Below are positions 10,353 through 27,185 of a stretch of DNA of 64,000 nucleotides, one piece after another. The stretch's first letter is position 1; each line of letters begins with the position of its first letter. The notes under the pieces were generated by a model. The model saw nothing but the letters and a program-made list of their open reading frames with translations. It had not been told where the DNA came from and searched no databases. Source of the DNA: Pseudomonadota bacterium (GTDB taxonomy: Bacteria > Pseudomonadota > Gammaproteobacteria > Burkholderiales > Gallionellaceae); NCBI GenBank assembly GCA_021800795.1, contig JAJYYO010000010.1, positions 80 through 64,079 on the forward strand, given 5' to 3'. The translations under genes and the position numbers were made by a program.

Positions 10353-11209
10353 GTCGTGTAATCCAGGGCGATGCCGGCGAAGACAGCAGCGCCGAACCAG
10401 TTGTTATGCAGGAATGCCTTGAAGCAGGCTTCGCGGTTTCTGTTTTTGATGAGCGAGTAGTGATACAGCGCGATGGCGGATGCGATTGCCAGTCCGGCGT
10501 AATACAAGCCGCCCAGATGCGCAATTTTACCTGCCCAGGCCAATAATGCCAGCGTCGCGGCATAACAGCCCATCACCGCCGTCACGTCGTATTTGCCGAA
10601 AAACAGCGCCGATGAGTGGATGCCCAGATGAATGTCGTCATCCCTGTCCACCATCGCGTATTCGGTATCGTAGGCGATCGACCAGAACATGTTCGCGCTT
10701 AAAAGTATCCACGCTACAGGCGGTACGGCATTCAGCTGGGCGGCAAAGCTCATCGGGATGCCGAAGCCGAACGCGATGCCCAGATAGGCTTGCGGAATGG
10801 CCAGAAAGCGCTTGGTGAACGGATAGCTGCCGGCCAGAAAGACCGCCGGAACAGACAGCAACAGAGTCAGCGTATTGAGCGGCAGTATCAGCAGGAAGGA
10901 AATAACGGCAAGCGTCGCTGCCAGCCACAAGGCTTCGCGTGGCGTAATGCGTCCGCTGGTGACGGGGCGGTTTTGTGTGCGTTCGACATGACGGTCTATG
11001 TCGCGGTCGGCATAGTCGTTGATCGCGCAACCTGCCGAGCGCATCAGCAGGGTACCCAGCGTAAAGATCAGCACGATGTGCCAGGCCGGTGTGCCGCCGC
11101 CTGCGATCCATATTCCCCACAGCGTCGGCCATAACAAGAGCAGGATGCCGATGGGGCGATTCAGCCGGGTGAGCTGCATATACAGCGATAAGCGTTCAAT
11201 AAAAGTCAT
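10349..11209 (-). CDS. ubiA: 4-hydroxybenzoate octaprenyltransferase
   Basis: [16 protein letters not shown]...[19 protein letters not shown]. Confidence 0.96.
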
Positions 11210-11922
11210 TTCAGGATCGAGGATCGAGGATCGAGGATCGAGGATCGAGCGTGAGGCGGCGCTGTCACACGATCCTCAATCCTCAATCCTAGATTTAATA
11301 TGCCGGGCAAAAACACTTCCGTGACCAGCAGCGGTTTATTGTGCAGATAAAACAGGGATCTGCGCGCCCAAAGCCTGCCAGGCGGATAGGACAATATGCC
11401 AGCTGCGCGCCGGTACAGCGGATGATGCGGGTGCAAGGCCTTGTAATGCAATGGCAGACGGGCAACCATCGGATGCGAGAACAGCAGCGCGCCCAGCGGT
11501 TTGTTGCCAAGGTTGCGCAAACCCTGCCAAGCTCCGCGCAACGCTGTGGCAGCGCAGGCGCTGTGCGCAAATACCACGGGTTGCTTATCGGCGCACAGGA
11601 AAACTTCGCGCGACCAGGCAAGCTGCCTGGTGGCGATCCCCAGCAGTGCCGATTCATCCGGTGCAATGAGCGCCAGGCCGCTCTTCACGTTGCGCACGGA
11701 AAAATGCTCGCAGTGCTGCATAATGCGCTGCGTCAGCGAACCGCGGTCACGCAGCCAGGGCAGCAATTCTGCTCCGGCTCCCAATGTCGCGCTGCTCCAG
11801 AATGTGTCGTTCATGTGAAACTCGCGCAAGCGTTCGTTTGCCTCCTCGCCCTTTGGGAGAGGGTTGGGGTGAGGGAAGCGGGCATCATGGTTTTTATTAT
11901 CAGAGGTTGCATACTTTTTCAT
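11206..11922 (-). CDS. ubiC: chorismate pyruvate-lyase with repeat-derived termini (core may start at 11814)
   Basis: [48 protein letters not shown]. Confidence 0.92.
11214..11290. repeat. inverted heptamer arrays in the ubiC C-terminus
   Basis: (GGATCGA)x5 at 11214-11248 facing gatcctcaatcctcaatcct at 11271-11290. Confidence 0.9.
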
Positions 11923-11930
11923 GCTCGCTA
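11815..11930. mobile_element. family-A element, copy 2 (recG-ubiC junction)
   Basis: gtgaaactcgcgcaagcgttcgtttg...gggagagggttggggtgaggg...attatcag...catgctcgcta; contains the recG stop and an in-frame ATG. Confidence 0.8.
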
Positions 11931-14087
11931 TACGTGCAAATAGTCATGTTTGTTTGCCATCCAGCGATGCAAGTAGCCGCGCGCAGCCTCCGGATAGTCG
12001 CGCAGCAACTGATCGGCGACATCCCTTGCCATGTTCAATAAATCTTCGTCAGTTTCTATATTGGCAAAACGCAACATCGCCATGCCGCTTTGCCGTGCGC
12101 CGAGCAGTTCGCCCGGACCCCGCAATTGTAAGTCCTGTTGGGCAATCGCGAAGCCGTCCGTGTTCTCGAAAATGACTTTCAGGCGTGTACGGGCCAGTTC
12201 GGACAGCGGTTTCTGATAAAGCAGGATGCACAGGCTTTGCGCCGCGCCGCGTCCCACGCGTCCGCGCAACTGATGCAGCTGTGCCAGCCCCATGCGTTCG
12301 GCATGATCGATCACCATCAGGCTGGCATTCGGTACATCCACGCCGACTTCGATGACGGTGGTTGCGACCAGCAACTGGAGTTCGCCGGTCTTGAATGCGG
12401 CCATCACGCGCACCTTTTCGCTGCTGTCCATCTTGCCGTGTACCAGGCCCACGCGCAGTTCGGGGAAAGTCCCGGTGAGCATTTGGTGTGTTTCCAGCGC
12501 ATTTTGCAATTGCAGCACTTCGGATTCGTCGATCAACGGGCACACCCAATAGGCCTGCTGTCCGGTCATGCAGGCGGCGCGCACCCGCTCGAATACCTCG
12601 TCGCGGCGCGCTTCGCTGACCAGTTTGGTAATCACCGGGGTGCGACCCGGCGGCAATTCGTCTATCACCGATACGTCCAGATCGGCGTAATAGCTCATCG
12701 CCAGCGTGCGCGGAATCGGCGTGGCGCTCATCATCAGCTGATGCGGTTCGGCGGATTTAAATTGTTCATCAGGCCGTTCGTGGTGAGCTTGTCGAACCCT
12801 CTGCGCAGTAAATTCATTCCCTTCGACTAGCTCAGGCGGGTGTCCGACCACCAGGTTTATGGGGCGAACGGATTTTTCGGTCTTGCCTTTGGCATGAAGG
12901 GCCAGGCGCTGCTGTACGCCGAACTTGTGCTGCTCGTCCACGATCGCGAGCCCCAGTTTGTGGAAACTGATCTGTTGCTGGAACAGCGCATGCGTGCCGA
13001 TGGCAAGCAGCGTTTCGCCCGATGCGATTTTGTCTGAGGCTACCCGCTTGTCTTTTTTCTTCAGGCTGCCGGACAGCCAGACCGGCGTCACGCCTAGCGG
13101 CGCCAGCCAGTCACCGAGTTTCAGGTAATGCTGCTCGGCCAGAATTTCGGTGGGTGCCATGAAGGCGACCTGATAGCCGTTCTCGATGGCTTGCAAGGCT
13201 GCGAGTGCGGCGACGATGGTCTTGCCGCTGCCCACATCGCCCAGCAGCAGACGTTGCATCGGATGCGGTTTTGCCAGATCGCGGCTGATTTCGCTGAATA
13301 CTTTCTGCTGTGCGCCGGTCAGTTTGAACGGCAGGTTTTTCAGGAGTGCCGCGGTGTAACGGCCCGTCTGTTTGAGAGCAGGCGCCACGCGATTGCTGCG
13401 TTCACGATGATGCACGCGCATCGAGAGTTGCTGGGCCAGCAACTCGTCGAACTTGATGCGTCGCCAGGCGGGATGCGTGCGTTCTTCCAGAGAACTCGCA
13501 GCAATATCCGGCATAGGGTTATGCAGCACATTAAGGCTCTCTGAAAACCCGAGCAAATTCAAGTTGTTGCAAATTTCCTCAGGCAGGTAGTCCGGCGTAG
13601 GCAGCACTTCGAGTGCGTTGGCGATCAGTTTGCGCAACGCGGTTTGCGACAGTCCGGCTGTGGCAGGATATACCGGCGTCAGACTGGTTTGCAACGGTGT
13701 CTCGTCGTTCACCGCACGGCATTTCGGATGCACCATCTCCAGTCCGTAATAACCCATGCGCACCTCGCCGACGGCGCGTATCTGATTATCCACGGCCAGC
13801 AGTTTTGTCTGGCTGGGATAGAAATTAAGAAAGCGCAGATACAGCTCGCCGCTTGCGTCCTGCAGGCGGCAGATCAGCGTGCGGCGCGGGCGGTGGGTAA
13901 TCCCGGCGTGCGTGATGACGCCCTGTACCTGTGCGGTTTCGCCGGGTTCCACGGCCGCAATCGGCGCGAGATGGGTTTCGTCCTCGTAACGGATCGGCAG
14001 ATGCAGCAACAGATCGGCACGATGGTGGATGCCCAGCTTCGCGAGATTCGCCAGCGTGGCAGGAGAGATTTTCGCGGGGGAGGTCAA
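11928..14087 (-). CDS. recG: ATP-dependent DNA helicase RecG
   Basis: GDVGSGKT, DEQH, MSATPIPRT, QLHQLRGRVGRG. Confidence 0.97.
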   Translation of the reverse strand: MTSPAKISPATLANLAKLGIHHRADLLLHLPIRYEDETHLAPIAAVEPGETAQVQGVITHAGITHRPRRTLICRLQDASGELYLRFLNFYPSQTKLLAVDNQIRAVGEVRMGYYGLEMVHPKCRAVNDETPLQTSLTPVYPATAGLSQTALRKLIANALEVLPTPDYLPEEICNNLNLLGFSESLNVLHNPMPDIAASSLEERTHPAWRRIKFDELLAQQLSMRVHHRERSNRVAPALKQTGRYTAALLKNLPFKLTGAQQKVFSEISRDLAKPHPMQRLLLGDVGSGKTIVAALAALQAIENGYQVAFMAPTEILAEQHYLKLGDWLAPLGVTPVWLSGSLKKKDKRVASDKIASGETLLAIGTHALFQQQISFHKLGLAIVDEQHKFGVQQRLALHAKGKTEKSVRPINLVVGHPPELVEGNEFTAQRVRQAHHERPDEQFKSAEPHQLMMSATPIPRTLAMSYYADLDVSVIDELPPGRTPVITKLVSEARRDEVFERVRAACMTGQQAYWVCPLIDESEVLQLQNALETHQMLTGTFPELRVGLVHGKMDSSEKVRVMAAFKTGELQLLVATTVIEVGVDVPNASLMVIDHAERMGLAQLHQLRGRVGRGAAQSLCILLYQKPLSELARTRLKVIFENTDGFAIAQQDLQLRGPGELLGARQSGMAMLRFANIETDEDLLNMARDVADQLLRDYPEAARGYLHRWMANKHDYLHV
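12774..12871. repeat. palindromic element in frame in recG
   Basis: ccgttcgtggtgagcttgtcgaacc...ccttcgactagctcagg...gcgaacgg, read as PELVEG...VRQAHHER. Confidence 0.85.
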
Positions 14088-24048: not shown

Positions 24049-25860
24049 TTAGCGTTTTTCCAGCCATTCGATCAGTGCATCCTGCGCGGGTTGGCCGTAT
24101 TTCGCGTTGGGGTGATTGATGATGAAAACCATGATCCATTGCTTGCCGCTTGCGGCGTGAACATATCCGGCGATGGATTTCACGCCTTCCAGCGATCCCG
24201 TCTTGAGATGGGCGTGCCCGGCAATTTCCCCGTCCTTGAAACGCCTCTTTACCGTGCCGTCCATGCCGAGTATCGGTAAGGACGCTTCCAGTTCAGCGGA
24301 ATAAGGGCTGAGTGCGGCGCGATTGAGAATGTCGGCGAGGTGATGCGCACTGATGCGTTCCGTGCGCGACAGGCCCGCACCGTTTTCCAGTACGAGTTCG
24401 GGAAATTGCCGGTTGCCCAGCCATCGCGCGATGGCTGAAACGCTGCGTGCAATGCTGGCAGTTCCTCCGTCAGTCGCACCCAAAGTCAGAAACAGTTGCC
24501 GTGCCATCGTGTTGTTGCTGAACTTGTTGATGTCGCGAATTATTTCCGACAAGGGCGGCGAGAGGTGGGTGGAAAAAACGGGCAGGGAGTCTGGTGCGAA
24601 CCCCGTTTTTACATGACCTTGAATCTGCCCGCCGAGCTCTTGCCATAATGCGGCAAACACGGCGAAAAAATAGTCATCAGGCGGCAAGAGAGAAAAATAA
24701 TCCTGCGCTTCGCCGCACAGAGCGGGGATTTTGCCTTCCAGCACGATGTTGCGCCCTTCCAGATGCGACTGGTAGGCGTCTTCGCCGTTGCACGGTAGGC
24801 GGGCGTCGGTGGTGATCCGGTTGATCAGGTGATAGCCATGCAATTCGGGTTCCAGCAGTGCGGTGGTTTGATTGCCGTCCGGCAGTAAACGCAAGTGCAG
24901 GGCGTTCAGATTGAGCAGCAGGGCGTCAGGGCCGACGTTGTAGGCGCGATTTGGCTTGTTGTCGAATGCAGAAGGATCATAGTGATCGTCTTGGAAAAAG
25001 CTGTTATCGAGCACGATATCGCCGCGAATCTCGCGCAATCCGCGCTGGCGAAGCTCATGCAGCCACAGCCAGAATTCTTCTATGGTCAGCTTGGGATCGC
25101 CATAGCCTTTAAAGACAACATTGCCGTGCAAAACGCCGTTCTCCAGTTTGCCGTCAAGATAGGCTTCGGTCTTCCAGCGATAGGCAGGCCCTAAAATTCC
25201 CAGTCCGGCATAGGTTGTCAGCAGCTTCATGGTTGAGGCGGGATTCATTGCCTGCGTGGCGTTCAGACTGATGAGCGGACGAGGTTTGCCTGCTTCGCGC
25301 ACTTCCACTGCGACGGCATTAAGCGGGATGTTTGCTTTTTCGAGTTCAGTTCGGACTGAGTCCGGCAATGGAATTGCATTTGCATTCAAAACGGACGATA
25401 ACAATATGCAGAGTAAAAGTGCGCAAGGCCAAAAAACAGCGTCATTCCCGCGCAGGCGGGAATCCAGTAGAAAAAAACATTCCGCGTAGCGGTCGAAATA
25501 TTTATGTTGTCCCGCGTTGCGGGAGCGTTTTAAATTATCTGGATTTCCGCATGCGCGGGAATGACGTTCAAATAAAATAGCTAGGAGCCTGTCGGACTTC
25601 TTTCGCGAGTGCGACGGGGATGATTTTTTTGTAGTGCAAGGAACGGTAAAGCGCCGTTTGGTCATTCCAAACAAGCAAGCCGCAACGCAGCAATACGTAA
25701 AAATCACCCCGTCCCGGAGGGTTGTCAGCAAAAATGGCGTCTGCGGCGTTACAAATCTTGACAATGGAATAACCATTGTCTGCAATTTGTGCCTTGCATC
25801 CATCCATTTTTTGCCGACAACGCATCTCGCGAAAGAAGTCCGACAGGCTCCTAGATTCAT
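24049..25860 (-). CDS. dacB: D-alanyl-D-alanine carboxypeptidase/endopeptidase PBP4 with ~130-aa repeat-derived N-terminal insert
   Basis: PASTMK (SxxK), SNN, KTGSL; ATG overlaps the bioA stop (ATGA); signal-peptide-like segment lies downstream of two repeat elements. Confidence 0.88.
   Translation of the reverse strand: MNLGACRTSFARCVVGKKWMDARHKLQTMVIPLSRFVTPQTPFLLTTLRDGVIFTYCCVAACLFGMTKRRFTVPCTTKKSSPSHSRKKSDRLLAILFERHSRACGNPDNLKRSRNAGQHKYFDRYAECFFLLDSRLRGNDAVFWPCALLLCILLSSVLNANAIPLPDSVRTELEKANIPLNAVAVEVREAGKPRPLISLNATQAMNPASTMKLLTTYAGLGILGPAYRWKTEAYLDGKLENGVLHGNVVFKGYGDPKLTIEEFWLWLHELRQRGLREIRGDIVLDNSFFQDDHYDPSAFDNKPNRAYNVGPDALLLNLNALHLRLLPDGNQTTALLEPELHGYHLINRITTDARLPCNGEDAYQSHLEGRNIVLEGKIPALCGEAQDYFSLLPPDDYFFAVFAALWQELGGQIQGHVKTGFAPDSLPVFSTHLSPPLSEIIRDINKFSNNTMARQLFLTLGATDGGTASIARSVSAIARWLGNRQFPELVLENGAGLSRTERISAHHLADILNRAALSPYSAELEASLPILGMDGTVKRRFKDGEIAGHAHLKTGSLEGVKSIAGYVHAASGKQWIMVFIINHPNAKYGQPAQDALIEWLEKR
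25441..25565. mobile_element. GTCATTCCCGCG-type palindromic element in frame in dacB
   Basis: gtcattcccgcgcaggcgggaatccag ... ctggatttccgcatgcgcgggaatgac (LLDSRLRGND). Confidence 0.88.
25581..25854. mobile_element. CTAG-flanked MITE in frame in dacB
   Basis: Perfect 29-bp TIR ctaggagcctgtcggacttctttcgcgag; 270 bp net (90 codons, no stop). Confidence 0.92.
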
Positions 25861-27185
25861 GTCAGTGTCTCGATGATGTTTTTCGTGCGCGTGAGCAGAA
25901 TATGCATTTCTTCATCAGAGATAACGTAGGGAGGCATGAAGTAAACCGTGTTGCCCATCGGGCGCAACAGCAGCTCGTGCTGTAATCCAAGCTGAAAGCA
26001 GCGCTGTGCAAAATCCGCATGCGGAGACACCACTTCAAACGCCCAGATCATGCCGGTGTTGCGCCAGTTTTTAACGAAGGGCAGTTCGCGCAGCGGTTGT
26101 GCGATGCTGTTGAGAAAGGCGGCCTTTTGCCGATTGGCAGCCAGCACATTGTCCTGTTCAAAAATATCCAGCGTTGCAAGAGCTGCGCGGCAGGCCAGCG
26201 GATTGCCTGTATAGGAATGCGAATGCAGAAAGCCGCGCGCGGTCTCTGTGGCATAGAAAGCCTGATAGATTTTGTCGGTCGTCATCACGATCGACAGGGG
26301 GAGGTAACCGCCGGTGATGCCTTTGGAAATCAGCAGGAAGTCGGGCGCGATCCCGCCCTGTTCGCAGGCGAACATCGTGCCTGTTCTGCCCATGCCGACG
26401 GCAATCTCGTCGGCGATCAGATGTACGTCATATTTATCGCAAAGCTGGCGTGCCAGCTTGAGGTAGATCGGGTGAAACATCGCCATGCCGGCGGCACCCT
26501 GAACCAGCGGCTCGATGATGAAGGCGGCAAGCTGTGCGTGATGTTGCTGCAAATGTGTTTCAAGCGCCTCTGCGCAGCGCAGCGCGCAGGTTTCACTTGT
26601 TTCGCCTTCTGCAGCATTGCGCGAGTCAGGGCTCGCGATGGTTGCCTGTTGGCGGATCAGCATGCCATAAGCATCGCGGAACAGGGCTACATCGGTCACT
26701 GATAAAGCGCCCAGGGTTTCGCCGTGATAGCTGTTTTGCAAACTGATGAACTGCACTTTGTCAGGCTGTCCGGTATTGCGCCAGTAGTGTGCGCTCATCT
26801 TGAGTGCGATTTCGGTGGCCGATGCACCGTCCGAACCGTAGAAGCAGTGACCGAGGCCTGGCGGTGCAAGTTCACGCAGACGCTCGGACAGCTCGATCAC
26901 GGGCTCGTGGGTAAAGCCTGCAAGCATCACGTGTTCCAGTTTTTCCAGTTGGCAGCGGATGGCGGCATTGATGCGCGGGTTGCTGTGACCAAACAGATTG
27001 ACCCACCATGAGCTGACTGCATCCAGATATTTGTTTCCGTCGTAGTCATGCAGCCATACCCCCTGTCCGCGCGCAATGGGCATCAGTGGAAACGTTTCAT
27101 ATTGTTTCATCTGCGAGCAGGGGTGCCAGACGGCGGACAGCGAGCGACTGATCAGATCGGCATTGGTTGGCGTGTTTTTTTGCAT
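25857..27185 (-). CDS. bioA: adenosylmethionine-8-amino-7-oxononanoate aminotransferase
   Basis: VWHPCSQM, SSWWVN, SYHGET, DEIAVG, SKGITGG, HSHSY. Confidence 0.96.
   Translation of the reverse strand: MQKNTPTNADLISRSLSAVWHPCSQMKQYETFPLMPIARGQGVWLHDYDGNKYLDAVSSWWVNLFGHSNPRINAAIRCQLEKLEHVMLAGFTHEPVIELSERLRELAPPGLGHCFYGSDGASATEIALKMSAHYWRNTGQPDKVQFISLQNSYHGETLGALSVTDVALFRDAYGMLIRQQATIASPDSRNAAEGETSETCALRCAEALETHLQQHHAQLAAFIIEPLVQGAAGMAMFHPIYLKLARQLCDKYDVHLIADEIAVGMGRTGTMFACEQGGIAPDFLLISKGITGGYLPLSIVMTTDKIYQAFYATETARGFLHSHSYTGNPLACRAALATLDIFEQDNVLAANRQKAAFLNSIAQPLRELPFVKNWRNTGMIWAFEVVSPHADFAQRCFQLGLQHELLLRPMGNTVYFMPPYVISDEEMHILLTRTKNIIETLT

What the first reader, a model, noticed from the sequence alone, without database searches (positions are those of the whole stretch)
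25380..25860. Two MITEs stacked in frame ahead of the DacB signal peptide
The ATG at 25860 is coupled to the bioA stop. Removing the CTAG-flanked MITE (270 bp net, 90 stop-free codons) gives MNLAILFE.... Removing the adjacent 125-bp palindrome as well brings this next to AVFWPCALLLCILLSSVLNANA, a normal-looking signal peptide. As it stands, about 130 foreign residues precede the hydrophobic segment, with no obvious closer ATG. Either export tolerates this, the protein becomes membrane-anchored, or the gene is effectively inactivated despite an intact frame.
Basis: partly seen in the sequence, partly recalled or inferred. Interest (0 to 1): 0.65.

Follow-up and report, generated by a model that had tools for sequence, protein, structure and literature searches.

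The report
Two repeats inside dacB's signal peptide
In this Gallionella genome two small mobile palindromic repeats, one old and one very recent, sit in frame between the start codon of the cell-wall enzyme DacB (PBP4) and its export signal; relatives show the old one has long been tolerated, making this a neat but not unprecedented case of selfish DNA read as protein.

Summary
The 603-codon dacB frame (24049-25860, minus strand) starts at an ATG that overlaps the bioA stop (ATGA). This is the ancestral start: across the genus, dacB begins on or just after the bioA stop and runs straight into a 19-30 aa signal peptide.

Two repeats lie between that ATG and the hydrophobic core.

- **MITE1 (25581-25854).** It has perfect 29-bp inverted ends and a CTAG target duplication, and adds 270 bp (90 codons). 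The genome holds 11 full copies. The insertion is very recent: close relatives have the empty site.
- **Element 2 (25440-25566).** It is a 127-bp palindromic doublet built like a Neisseria dRS3-RS-dRS3 unit and is read as 42 codons. It sits at the same site in two other species-level lineages and in close alleles. One allele has an in-frame 54-bp deletion and another has no element.

Mature DacB stays under purifying selection (pN/pS about 0.1-0.2) in all of them. Translation through element 2 from the coupled ATG is therefore probably real and tolerated.

In-frame palindromic repeats are already known (Rickettsia RPEs), so interest is moderate.

The parts
25857..27185 (-). bioA (adenosylmethionine-8-amino-7-oxononanoate aminotransferase-like, 442 aa). 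Its TGA stop lies inside the ATGA shared with dacB.
   Evidence: ORF list. Pfam Aminotran_3 on the orthologous genes. The bioA-dacB order is conserved in the genus.
24049..25860 (-). dacB (PBP4, Peptidase_S13) reading frame as it stands: 603 codons plus stop.
   Evidence: PF02113 matches residues 169-601 with E 2.5e-86. The STMK, SNN and KTG motifs are present.
25857..25860 (-). ATGA overlap: the dacB start codon and the bioA stop codon. This is the ancestral, translationally coupled start.
   Evidence: The same overlap is present in L043, L044, L065, L066, L067 and L068 and in 12 of 23 genus loci.
25581..25854 (-). MITE1: a 274-bp non-autonomous element including both flanking CTAGs. It adds 270 bp net and is read as residues 3-92.
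   Evidence: - Perfect 29-nt inverted ends.
- 11 full copies at 88-99% identity, nearly all flanked by CTAG.
- Empty sites in relatives.
- A 99% identical twin at G000:C55:72490-72763.
25826..25854 (-). MITE1 inverted end nearest the start codon. The stem begins 6 nt after the AUG. CTAG at 25851-25854 is one copy of the target duplication.
25581..25609 (-). MITE1 distal inverted end. CTAG at 25581-25584 is the second copy of the target.
25567..25580 (-). 14 nt of original dacB 5' coding sequence between the two elements. Together with the preceding CTAG it is read as LAILFE.
   Evidence: Alignment with the MITE1-free alleles L066 and L068, which read ATGAATCTGGCTATTTTATTTGAA.
25440..25566 (-). 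Element 2: a 127-bp palindromic doublet made of two 28-nt arms around a 71-nt spacer. Each arm contains an ATTCCC-N8-GGGAAT-type palindrome. It is read as residues 99-140 (RHSRACGNP...DSRLRGND).
   Evidence: - Arm matches and inverted repeat.
- Family census.
- Orthologous copies in L043, L044, L054 and L065, and a 54-bp-deleted form in L066 and L068.
- Predicted RNA hairpin of -64.6 kcal/mol, z = -9.
25375..25440 (-). Signal-peptide core: the hydrophobic segment AVFWPCALLLCILLSSVLNANA, ending in an A-N-A cleavage motif (residues 141-162).
   Evidence: Hydropathy calculation. It aligns with the cleavage region of relatives' signal peptides.
24052..25374 (-). Mature DacB, from IPLPDSV... to the C-terminus.
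   Evidence: pN/pS is 0.1-0.2 against every allele.

Best explanation
dacB of this Gallionella strain is an intact PBP4 gene. Its original start codon, which overlaps the bioA stop, has been pushed 140 codons away from the signal-peptide core by two in-frame insertions of different age.

**First insertion (old).** A 127-bp palindromic doublet with Neisseria-NIME-like architecture landed in the signal-peptide coding region and has been carried in frame ever since. Ribosomes that finish bioA restart at the overlapping AUG and read through the hairpin-forming element. This makes a precursor with a long, basic n-region, in which SRLRGND now lies next to the hydrophobic core. The core and its A-N-A site still direct Sec export and cleavage. 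This step is inferred from comparative data.

**Second insertion (very recent).** A CTAG-targeting MITE inserted at codon 3, after a synonymous CTG-to-CTA change had created the target. This copy variant adds exactly 270 bp and is stop-free in the frame used, so the reading frame survived. The predicted precursor now has a 162-residue presequence.

My best guess is that it is still made and, at reduced efficiency, exported and cleaved, with coupling to bioA helping initiation next to the very stable MITE stem. The outcome for this newest allele is not shown.
For: **The start is ancestral.**
- The ATGA or GTGA overlap with bioA, or a gap of at most 19 nt in all but one locus, is found across the genus and is always followed by a compact signal peptide.

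**Element 2 is tolerated.**
- It sits at the same site and in the same frame in P0002/L043, P0003/L044 and G149/L054. These lineages differ from the window by pS 0.45-0.54 in bioA and dacB.
- Mature dacB has pN/pS of about 0.1-0.2 in every pairwise comparison among element-bearing lineages and alleles. The gene has therefore worked with the element in place.
- The window allele has no in-frame ATG, GTG or TTG between the element and the core.
- An allele shared by two diverged contigs, L066 and L068 (61 nt differences in the mature part), has lost 54 bp (18 codons) of the element, including its right arm. The frame from the ATG is kept.

**MITE1 is recent.**
- Its inverted ends are perfect and it has a 99% identical twin.
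- It is absent from the nearest allele, L065, which differs from the window by pS 0.02-0.05.
- Only 1 amino-acid state and 5 nucleotide states in mature DacB are unique to the window, and the catalytic motifs are intact.

**Frame survival needs no special pleading.**
- The 274-bp variant adds 270 bp and is open in the frame read here, as is its intergenic twin.

**No alternative expression route was found.**
- No promoter-like site was found inside the elements.
Against:
- Inside element 2, pN is about equal to pS (about 0.1). The peptide itself is therefore not under protein-level selection.
- The element's low divergence means the open frame could have persisted by chance. I estimate roughly a 1 in 3 chance of no stop arising.
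- ORF-based databases are biased towards alleles with intact frames.
- The MITE1-encoded peptide carries 17 K/R residues and a 15-residue stretch (VIFTYCCVAACLFGM, residues 52-66) as hydrophobic as the true core. This could mis-target the precursor or invert its topology.
- The mRNA is predicted to fold into two very stable hairpins (-228.8 kcal/mol over 466 nt, z = -14.7), with a 29-bp perfect stem starting 6 nt after the AUG.
- An allele with a plain signal peptide exists in a very close relative, L067 (pS 0.08). The extension is therefore dispensable.
Confidence: 0.5

Rival explanations
1. The recent MITE1 insertion has functionally knocked out or crippled dacB, although the frame is intact. 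The possible causes are poor initiation next to the 29-bp stem, premature termination or mRNA cleavage at the hairpins, or mis-targeting by the extra hydrophobic stretch and the basic tail. On this reading the gene is a pseudogene-in-waiting that has had no time to decay.
For: - The insertion is found only in this strain-level lineage.
- A second hydrophobic segment is as hydrophobic as the real core, and the insert carries 17 K/R residues.
- The predicted RNA structure is extreme.
- MITE1 contains small hairpin-plus-U-tract sites.
- Only this 1 of 11 copies lies in a long ORF.
- PBP4 is dispensable in E. coli (established knowledge).
- Keeping the frame was a 1-in-2 event for this copy variant, so it does not show selection.
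Against: - The frame is open and the catalytic motifs are intact.
- There is no excess of unique substitutions, although the insertion is too young for this to count for much.
- The genome has a single dacB.
- The presequence has already absorbed 18-42 foreign codons without loss of constraint on the enzyme.
Confidence: 0.3
2. The real start is a non-canonical codon inside the right arm of element 2, for example CTG in CTG GAT TCC CGC CTG CGC. This would give a normal-looking 27-31 aa signal peptide, (M)DSRLRGNDAVFWPCALLL...ANA. On this reading the long upstream frame is not translated into DacB, and its openness is a by-product of the element's intrinsic open frame and low divergence.
For: - The resulting peptide would have a textbook n-h-c layout (sequence).
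- The element family is open in frame 0 on both strands wherever it lies.
- pN is about equal to pS within the element.
- The open frame has little statistical weight.
Against: - The deletion alleles L066 and L068 lack exactly these codons, yet keep the upstream frame, and their mature DacB still shows purifying selection against the window allele (pN/pS about 0.14).
- There is no Shine-Dalgarno-like sequence at a suitable distance.
- The codons are buried in a -64.6 kcal/mol hairpin.
- CTG initiation is rare and weak in bacteria (established knowledge).
- The coupled ATG is retained in all alleles.
Confidence: 0.12
3. Assembly artefact: a repeat was wrongly placed into dacB during metagenome or draft assembly.
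For: - The genome is a 63-contig draft.
- Many copies of the repeats lie at contig ends.
- The only 3 mismatches to a second assembly fall inside the element-2 spacer, as if reads from paralogous copies had leaked in.
Against: - The junctions are clean, with a duplicated CTAG that matches the single CTGG or CAGG at the empty sites.
- The same structure stands in a second public assembly, GCA_027439055.1.
- Element 2 is present in at least five independent contigs from different samples.
Confidence: 0.03

Closest known systems
Rickettsia palindromic elements (RPEs; Ogata et al. 2000, as summarised in PMC10969869)
   Same: - They are small palindromic repeats inserted in frame into unrelated protein-coding genes and read as extra peptide, with the host protein apparently still working.
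- The element-2 family is likewise open in one frame on both strands.
- In this genome the family also sits in frame in an HsdM-like gene and an HsdS gene.
   Different: - There is no sequence relationship to RPEs (not tested, and none expected).
- The host is a free-living iron oxidiser, not a reduced intracellular genome.
- The insertion lies in a cleaved signal peptide rather than on the surface of the mature fold.
- The encoded peptide shows no protein-level constraint (pN about equal to pS).
Neisserial intergenic mosaic elements (NIMEs: dRS3-RS-dRS3; PMC1797815)
   Same: - The arms contain the 20-bp palindrome ATTCCC-N8-GGGAAT. The right arm matches exactly and the left arm has one mismatch.
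- The arms flank a lower-GC spacer within the 50-150 bp range.
- NIMEs are proposed to promote recombination that varies neighbouring genes. Here a recombination joint lies at the element in L065, and alleles with and without the element segregate among close relatives.
   Different: - The host is Gallionella, not Neisseria.
- This is a single unit, not an array.
- It lies inside a coding sequence and is translated.
- No dRS3-specific recombinase or phage was examined.
REPINs/REP doublets mobilised by RAYT transposases (Bertels & Rainey 2011)
   Same: - Two inverted short palindromes form one long hairpin.
- The genome holds 78 single units and about 15 doublets with 60-79 bp spacing.
   Different: - None of the five Y1-transposase matches in the genome is flanked by these units.
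- REPINs are typically extragenic.
CTAG-targeting MITEs derived from IS5-group or IS630/Tc1-mariner insertion sequences
   Same: - MITE1 has 29-bp inverted ends and no coding capacity for a transposase.
- Its target is CTAG, which reads either as a 4-bp duplication or as a TA duplication within CTAG.
- It has a dozen copies, plus about eight roughly 50-bp forms made of the two inverted ends alone.
   Different: - No autonomous partner with the same ends was found in this genome or in the genome collection. The parent family therefore cannot be named.
Extended signal peptides of autotransporters (ESPR; PMC2805444)
   Same: They are Sec signal peptides with an N-terminal extension ahead of a normal n-h-c core, and they still export.
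   Different: - ESPR is a conserved extension of about 25 aa with its own function.
- Here the extension is 50 residues (element-2 alleles) or 140 residues (window), consists of translated repeat DNA, and varies between close alleles.

Membership tests
MITE (generic definition) | Terminal inverted repeats | tested here: met
   MITE1 has perfect 29-nt inverted ends.
MITE (generic definition) | Target-site duplication shown by comparison with an empty site | tested here: met
   The window reads AAT-CTAG[element]CTAG-CTATT. The alleles L066 and L068 read AATCTGGCTATT, and L043, L044 and L065 read AATC(A/G)GG... Ten of the 11 full copies are flanked by CTAG.
MITE (generic definition) | Multiple dispersed copies that are small and encode no transposase | tested here: met
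   There are 11 full copies of 273-274 bp plus fragments in the window's own genome. The family is found in 6 of 156 genus genomes.
MITE (generic definition) | A related autonomous IS with the same ends | tested here: not met
   No pair of these ends is spaced 0.7-2.5 kb apart in the genome. An exact-end scan of the genome collection found only three contig-end hits.
IS5-group versus IS630-derived MITE | Size of the duplication: 4-bp CTAG (IS5 group) or TA within CTAG (IS630) | tested here: inconclusive
   Both readings give +270 bp and fit the empty site. Which is right depends on whether C...G belongs to the element.
NIME (dRS3-RS-dRS3) | 20-bp ATTCCCNNNNNNNNGGGAAT inverted repeats at both ends | tested here: met
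   The right arm is ATTCCCGCCTGCGCGGGAAT. The left arm is ATTCCCGCGCATGCGGAAAT, with one mismatch, and is exact in L044. The definition is taken from PMC1797815.
NIME (dRS3-RS-dRS3) | A 50-150 bp spacer between the dRS3 units | tested here: met
   There are 71 nt between the 28-nt arms.
NIME (dRS3-RS-dRS3) | Intergenic location, often in arrays, in Neisseria | tested here: not met
   The unit is single, lies inside a coding frame, and the genus is Gallionella.
REPIN/RAYT system | A RAYT (Y1 transposase) gene flanked by the same REP units | tested here: not met
   The genome has five PF01797 matches. None has the palindrome within 2.5 kb, apart from one unit 1.9 kb from C30:12522.
RPE-like in-frame palindromic elements | The element carries an open frame and is found in frame within unrelated ORFs | tested here: met
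   Frame 0 is open on both strands. In-frame copies lie in dacB, an HsdM-like gene and an HsdS gene.
RPE-like in-frame palindromic elements | The host protein stays functional | tested here: inconclusive
   This is inferred only from pN/pS of about 0.1-0.2 in mature dacB of element-bearing lineages. There is no biochemical evidence.
PBP4 / Peptidase_S13 (DacB) | S13 domain with SxxK, SxN and KTG motifs | tested here: met
   PF02113 matches with E 2.5e-86 over residues 169-601. STMK is at 209, SNN at 448 and KTG at 553.
Sec-type cleavable signal peptide | Hydrophobic core followed by a small-x-small cleavage motif | tested here: met
   The core AVFWPCALLLCILLS has KD 2.39, and it is followed by A-N-A before IPLP (alignment with relatives).
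Sec-type cleavable signal peptide | Short basic n-region directly after the initiator Met | tested here: not met
   140 residues precede the core in the window. The figure is 50 in element-2 alleles, 32 in the deletion allele, and fewer than 10 in plain alleles.
Sec-type cleavable signal peptide | Actual export and cleavage | not testable with these tools
   This needs SignalP or DeepTMHMM and an experiment.

The most novel reading that the evidence does not exclude
Gallionella carries an undescribed, genus-wide family of dRS3/NIME-like palindromic doublets that are coding-compatible on both strands. They encode RHS(R/G)AG.NP...LDS.LR.ND in either orientation and behave like Rickettsia RPEs, inserting in frame into working genes (dacB, hsdM, hsdS).

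On this reading the dacB copy is not merely tolerated. It is conserved at the nucleotide level (9-10% divergence against about 50% at synonymous sites). It may be kept because the hairpin ties dacB expression to ribosomes arriving from bioA, acting as a translation-dependent anti-terminator or attenuator. It may also be kept because it serves as a recombination joint that shuffles presequence alleles between lineages.
Probability: 0.2. Interest if true: 0.6.

Novelty: new member of a known kind. Interest (0 to 1): 0.4.

Why it matters
It gives a natural allelic series of one exported enzyme. The presequences are about 19, 54, 72 and 162 residues long, and they sit on nearly identical mature proteins. 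This is a ready-made test of how much foreign, repeat-derived peptide and RNA structure a Sec signal peptide and a translationally coupled start can absorb.

It also shows that in-frame colonisation of genes by palindromic repeats is not confined to reduced intracellular genomes such as Rickettsia. It occurs in a free-living betaproteobacterium as well, with elements built like Neisseria NIMEs.

For annotation, it warns that long N-terminal extensions on exported proteins in repeat-rich genomes may be real reading frames and not mis-called starts.

Tried and rejected
- The right arm of element 2 supplies an out-of-frame ATG (GGGAATGACG) followed by a T6 run, and T7 would give MTLFFWPCALLL... 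Residues 1-140 scored lowest (22-42). I take this only as showing no confident fold, and I ran no fold search.\n- **Rfam.** There was no meaningful hit.\n- **Promoter scan.** No sigma-70-like site was found in or near the elements.\n- **Literature.** I found nothing on Gallionella repeats and no MITE within a signal peptide.
Full report
**What is there**

On the minus strand, bioA (25857-27185) ends in TGA inside an ATGA whose ATG (25860) opens a 603-codon frame. That frame ends at 24049 and encodes a Peptidase_S13/PBP4 protein. PF02113 covers residues 169-601 with E 2.5e-86. The STMK, SNN and KTG motifs are intact.

Names attached to homologues place the genome in Gallionella. The draft has 63 contigs, 3.2 Mb and 55% G+C.

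**The start codon is the ancestral one**

I looked at 29 relatives' loci. bioA lies directly upstream of dacB throughout the genus. In 12 of the 23 genus loci with bioA upstream (the window's own included), the dacB start overlaps the bioA stop as ATGA or GTGA. In all but one of the others it follows within 19 nt.

In every relative the start is followed at once by a compact signal peptide of about 19-30 residues, such as MKTIIFFLILLALALDASA or MRLPILLLPLLFVTAAGA. In the window, 140 residues separate that same start from the hydrophobic core AVFWPCALLLCILLSSVLNANA and its A-N-A cleavage motif. No in-frame ATG, GTG or TTG lies closer than Met66.

**Insert 1 (MITE1, 25581-25854)**

- **Structure.** It has perfect 29-nt inverted ends beginning CTAG.
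- **Copies.** The genome holds 11 full copies (88-99% identical), two truncated ones at contig ends, and about eight roughly 50-bp forms made of the two ends alone. Nearly all are flanked by CTAG.
- **Partner.** No autonomous partner with these ends was found.
- **Distribution.** The family occurs in only 6 of 156 genomes of the genus.
- **Empty sites.** Close alleles read ATGAATCTGGCTATT (L066, L068) where the window reads ATGAAT-CTAG[...]CTAG-CTATT. So one CTAG was the target, created by a synonymous CTG-to-CTA change in Leu3, and the insertion added 270 bp.
- **Duplication size.** It could be CTAG (IS5-like) or TA within CTAG (IS630-like). This cannot be told.
- **Frame.** Most copies are 273 bp and would shift the frame. 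The dacB copy and its 99% identical intergenic twin (C55:72490-72763) are 274 bp and are stop-free in the frame used. Survival of the frame was therefore about a 1-in-2 event (orientation) for this variant and does not by itself show selection.
- **Location.** It is the only copy inside a long ORF.
- **Age.** It is very young. The nearest allele without it, L065, differs from the window by pS 0.02-0.05 in bioA and dacB.

**Insert 2 (element 2, 25440-25566)**

- **Structure.** Two 28-nt arms flank 71 nt, and each arm contains an ATTCCC-N8-GGGAAT-type palindrome. This is the architecture of a single Neisseria dRS3-RS-dRS3 (NIME) unit as defined in PMC1797815. It also resembles a REPIN.
- **Copies.** The genome has 78 single units, about 15 doublets with 60-79 bp spacing, and 14 full-length relatives of this copy at 69-82% identity.
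- **Distribution.** The family is in 74 of 156 genus genomes.
- **Mobiliser.** None of the genome's five Y1-transposase matches is flanked by the units.
- **Coding compatibility.** The element is stop-free in frame 0 on both strands, and both strands give a peptide of the form RHS.A..NP...R.RGND.

**Comparative evidence on element 2**

The protein search found two other 90%-identity clusters that carry the element at the same site and in the same frame, without MITE1: P0002 (511 aa) and P0003 (568 aa). G149 is close to P0003. These lineages differ from the window by pS 0.45-0.54 (dS 0.7-0.95) in bioA and mature dacB, with pN/pS of about 0.1-0.2.

Within the window's own 90% cluster there is an allelic series:

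| Allele | Locus | Length | Presequence state | Distance from window |
|---|---|---|---|---|
| P0124 | L067 | 459 aa | plain MRAALLCLSLLLALHAQA signal | mature part pS 0.08 |
| P0121 | L065 | 513 aa | full element 2 | pS 0.02-0.05 |
| P0123 and P0125 | L068 and L066 | 495 aa | element 2 with the same in-frame 54-bp deletion, which removes the right arm | the two contigs differ from each other at 61 nt |
| window / P0001 | window / L047 | 603 aa | element 2 plus MITE1 | - |

All alleles keep the ATGA start and an open frame to the core. Mature DacB shows pN/pS of 0.12-0.18 against each. The enzyme has therefore remained under purifying selection while carrying element 2. In the window allele there is no other conventional way to start upstream of the core. 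This is the main support for real translation through the element.

**Limits of that inference**

- Inside the element, pN is about equal to pS (about 0.1), so the peptide itself is not selected.
- The element's divergence (11-13 differences in 126 nt) is far below that of neutral sites. This means either nucleotide-level constraint or later spread of the 5' allele by recombination.
- Recombination certainly happens here. L065 matches the L044 lineage in bioA's last 30 nt or so and in dacB codons 3-8, but matches the window from the element onward. L067 carries a foreign, plain 5' end.
- No compensatory pattern was seen in the hairpin.
- With so few substitutions, absence of stops is weak evidence, and ORF databases favour intact frames.
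- My attempts to find alleles at the DNA level found nothing.

**Likely mechanism**

The mRNA from just upstream of the dacB AUG to the core is predicted to form two large hairpins. The total is -228.8 kcal/mol over 466 nt (z = -14.7), and element 2 alone is -64.6 kcal/mol. The MITE1 stem starts 6 nt after the AUG.

A free 30S subunit would bind poorly there. A ribosome terminating on the overlapping bioA UGA has already opened the stem and can restart, so the ATGA coupling probably rescues initiation (inference).

No promoter-like site lies in the elements. The translated extension is basic:

- MITE1 part: 17 K/R against 3 D/E.
- Element 2 part: 9 K/R against 5 D/E.

This fits a cytoplasmic n-region, with SRLRGND now adjoining the core. 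The original n-region residues have lost their charges in the element-bearing alleles (MNLAILFE, compared with MK...R.. in plain alleles). This is consistent with that role having moved.

**The risk for the newest allele**

- MITE1 encodes VIFTYCCVAACLFGM (residues 52-66). It is as hydrophobic as the true core over 15 residues, although not over 19. It might be mistaken for a signal or an anchor.
- The AlphaFold model was too poor to add anything.
- No read or RNA data were available.

**Rivals**

- **Internal CTG initiation in the right arm.** It would give a textbook signal peptide. It is contradicted by the deletion alleles that lack those codons, by the missing ribosome-binding site, and by the hairpin.
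- **Functional inactivation by MITE1.** This remains a serious possibility (about 0.3).
- **Assembly artefact.** This is unlikely given the clean duplication, a second assembly with the same structure, and five independent contigs with element 2.

**Comparison with known systems**

In-frame insertion of palindromic repeats into genes is well documented. Rickettsia RPEs are the extreme case, and ERIC, BOX and some cyanobacterial MITEs are further examples (PMC10969869). Element 2's family behaves the same way in this genome. In-frame copies sit in an HsdM-like methylase and between the two target-recognition domains of an HsdS. dacB itself has been hit again, mid-gene, in the P0003 lineage by another abundant repeat.

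The new points are:

- the host, a free-living iron oxidiser;
- the NIME-like build of the element;
- the position inside a cleavable signal peptide;
- the stacking of a second MITE;
- the natural series of presequence lengths.

I found no paper on Gallionella repeats.

**Verdict**

This is a new member of a known kind, of moderate interest.

Noticed in passing
G000:C36:10652-10778 (ORF 10431-13061) and G000:C30:184895-185015 (ORF 184181-185698), outside the window: Copies of the element-2 family lie in frame inside two restriction-modification genes. One is an HsdM-like gene (N6_Mtase plus HSDR_N_2). The other is an HsdS gene, where the copy sits between its two Methylase_S domains. The family is stop-free in frame 0 on both strands.
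   Followed up: partly
G000:C46:50158-51609 (hypD), outside the window: An element-2 family copy lies just upstream of the hypD start. hypD itself carries a short in-frame insert (..SRSPHPNPKGEGTNERSRES..) from another repeat family.
   Followed up: no
L044:3000-4707 (dacB of P0003), residues 239-297: A 57-residue in-frame insert (GHGND...NITGG) lies in the middle of dacB. It comes from a repeat family with dozens of copies in the window's genome. The near-identical genome G149 (L054) lacks it, so it is a recent polymorphism.
   Followed up: partly
L029-L035 (genomes G005, G012, G014, G015, G020, G023, G024): Seven other Gallionella genomes have a 200-300 bp stop-free insert in dacB near residue 327 of the mature query. 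The match is split in two while the frame stays open.
   Followed up: no
window 25476-25518 (element-2 spacer) versus L047: The second assembly of this strain (GCA_027439055.1) differs from the window at only 3 of 7812 bases. All three fall within 43 bp of the element-2 spacer. This suggests gene conversion from paralogous copies, or repeat reads leaking into a consensus.
   Followed up: partly
L065:2440-2530 (bioA end and dacB codons 1-8): The allele nearest to the window is chimeric. Its bioA tail and dacB codons 3-8 match the L044 lineage, while the sequence from element 2 onward matches the window. This indicates a recombination joint at the repeat. L067 carries a plain signal peptide on a mature part that differs from the window by only pS 0.08.
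   Followed up: partly
G000:C59:5449-5504, C27:101-157, C63:1148-1200, C30:134934-134985 and others: There are about eight mini-palindromes of roughly 50 bp, each made of the two MITE1 inverted ends fused together. Most are flanked by CTAG. They could be deletion derivatives or excision remnants.
   Followed up: no
window 25375-25440: The hydrophobic core of element-2 alleles does not align with that of plain alleles. The +1 frame just after the element reads LFFGLAH, faintly like ..LFGLLLALH.. of plain signal peptides. The old core may now be read in a new frame.
   Followed up: no
P0030 (519 aa dacB homologue), N-terminus: Another Gallionella dacB has a different N-terminal extension that begins with a dRS3-type peptide (ARHSGAGRNPG). 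There an internal Met before the core is the likely true start.
   Followed up: no
L043:4680-5321: In the P0002 lineage an OmpA-like beta-barrel gene lies between dacB and ubiD. It is absent from the window and from L044.
   Followed up: no
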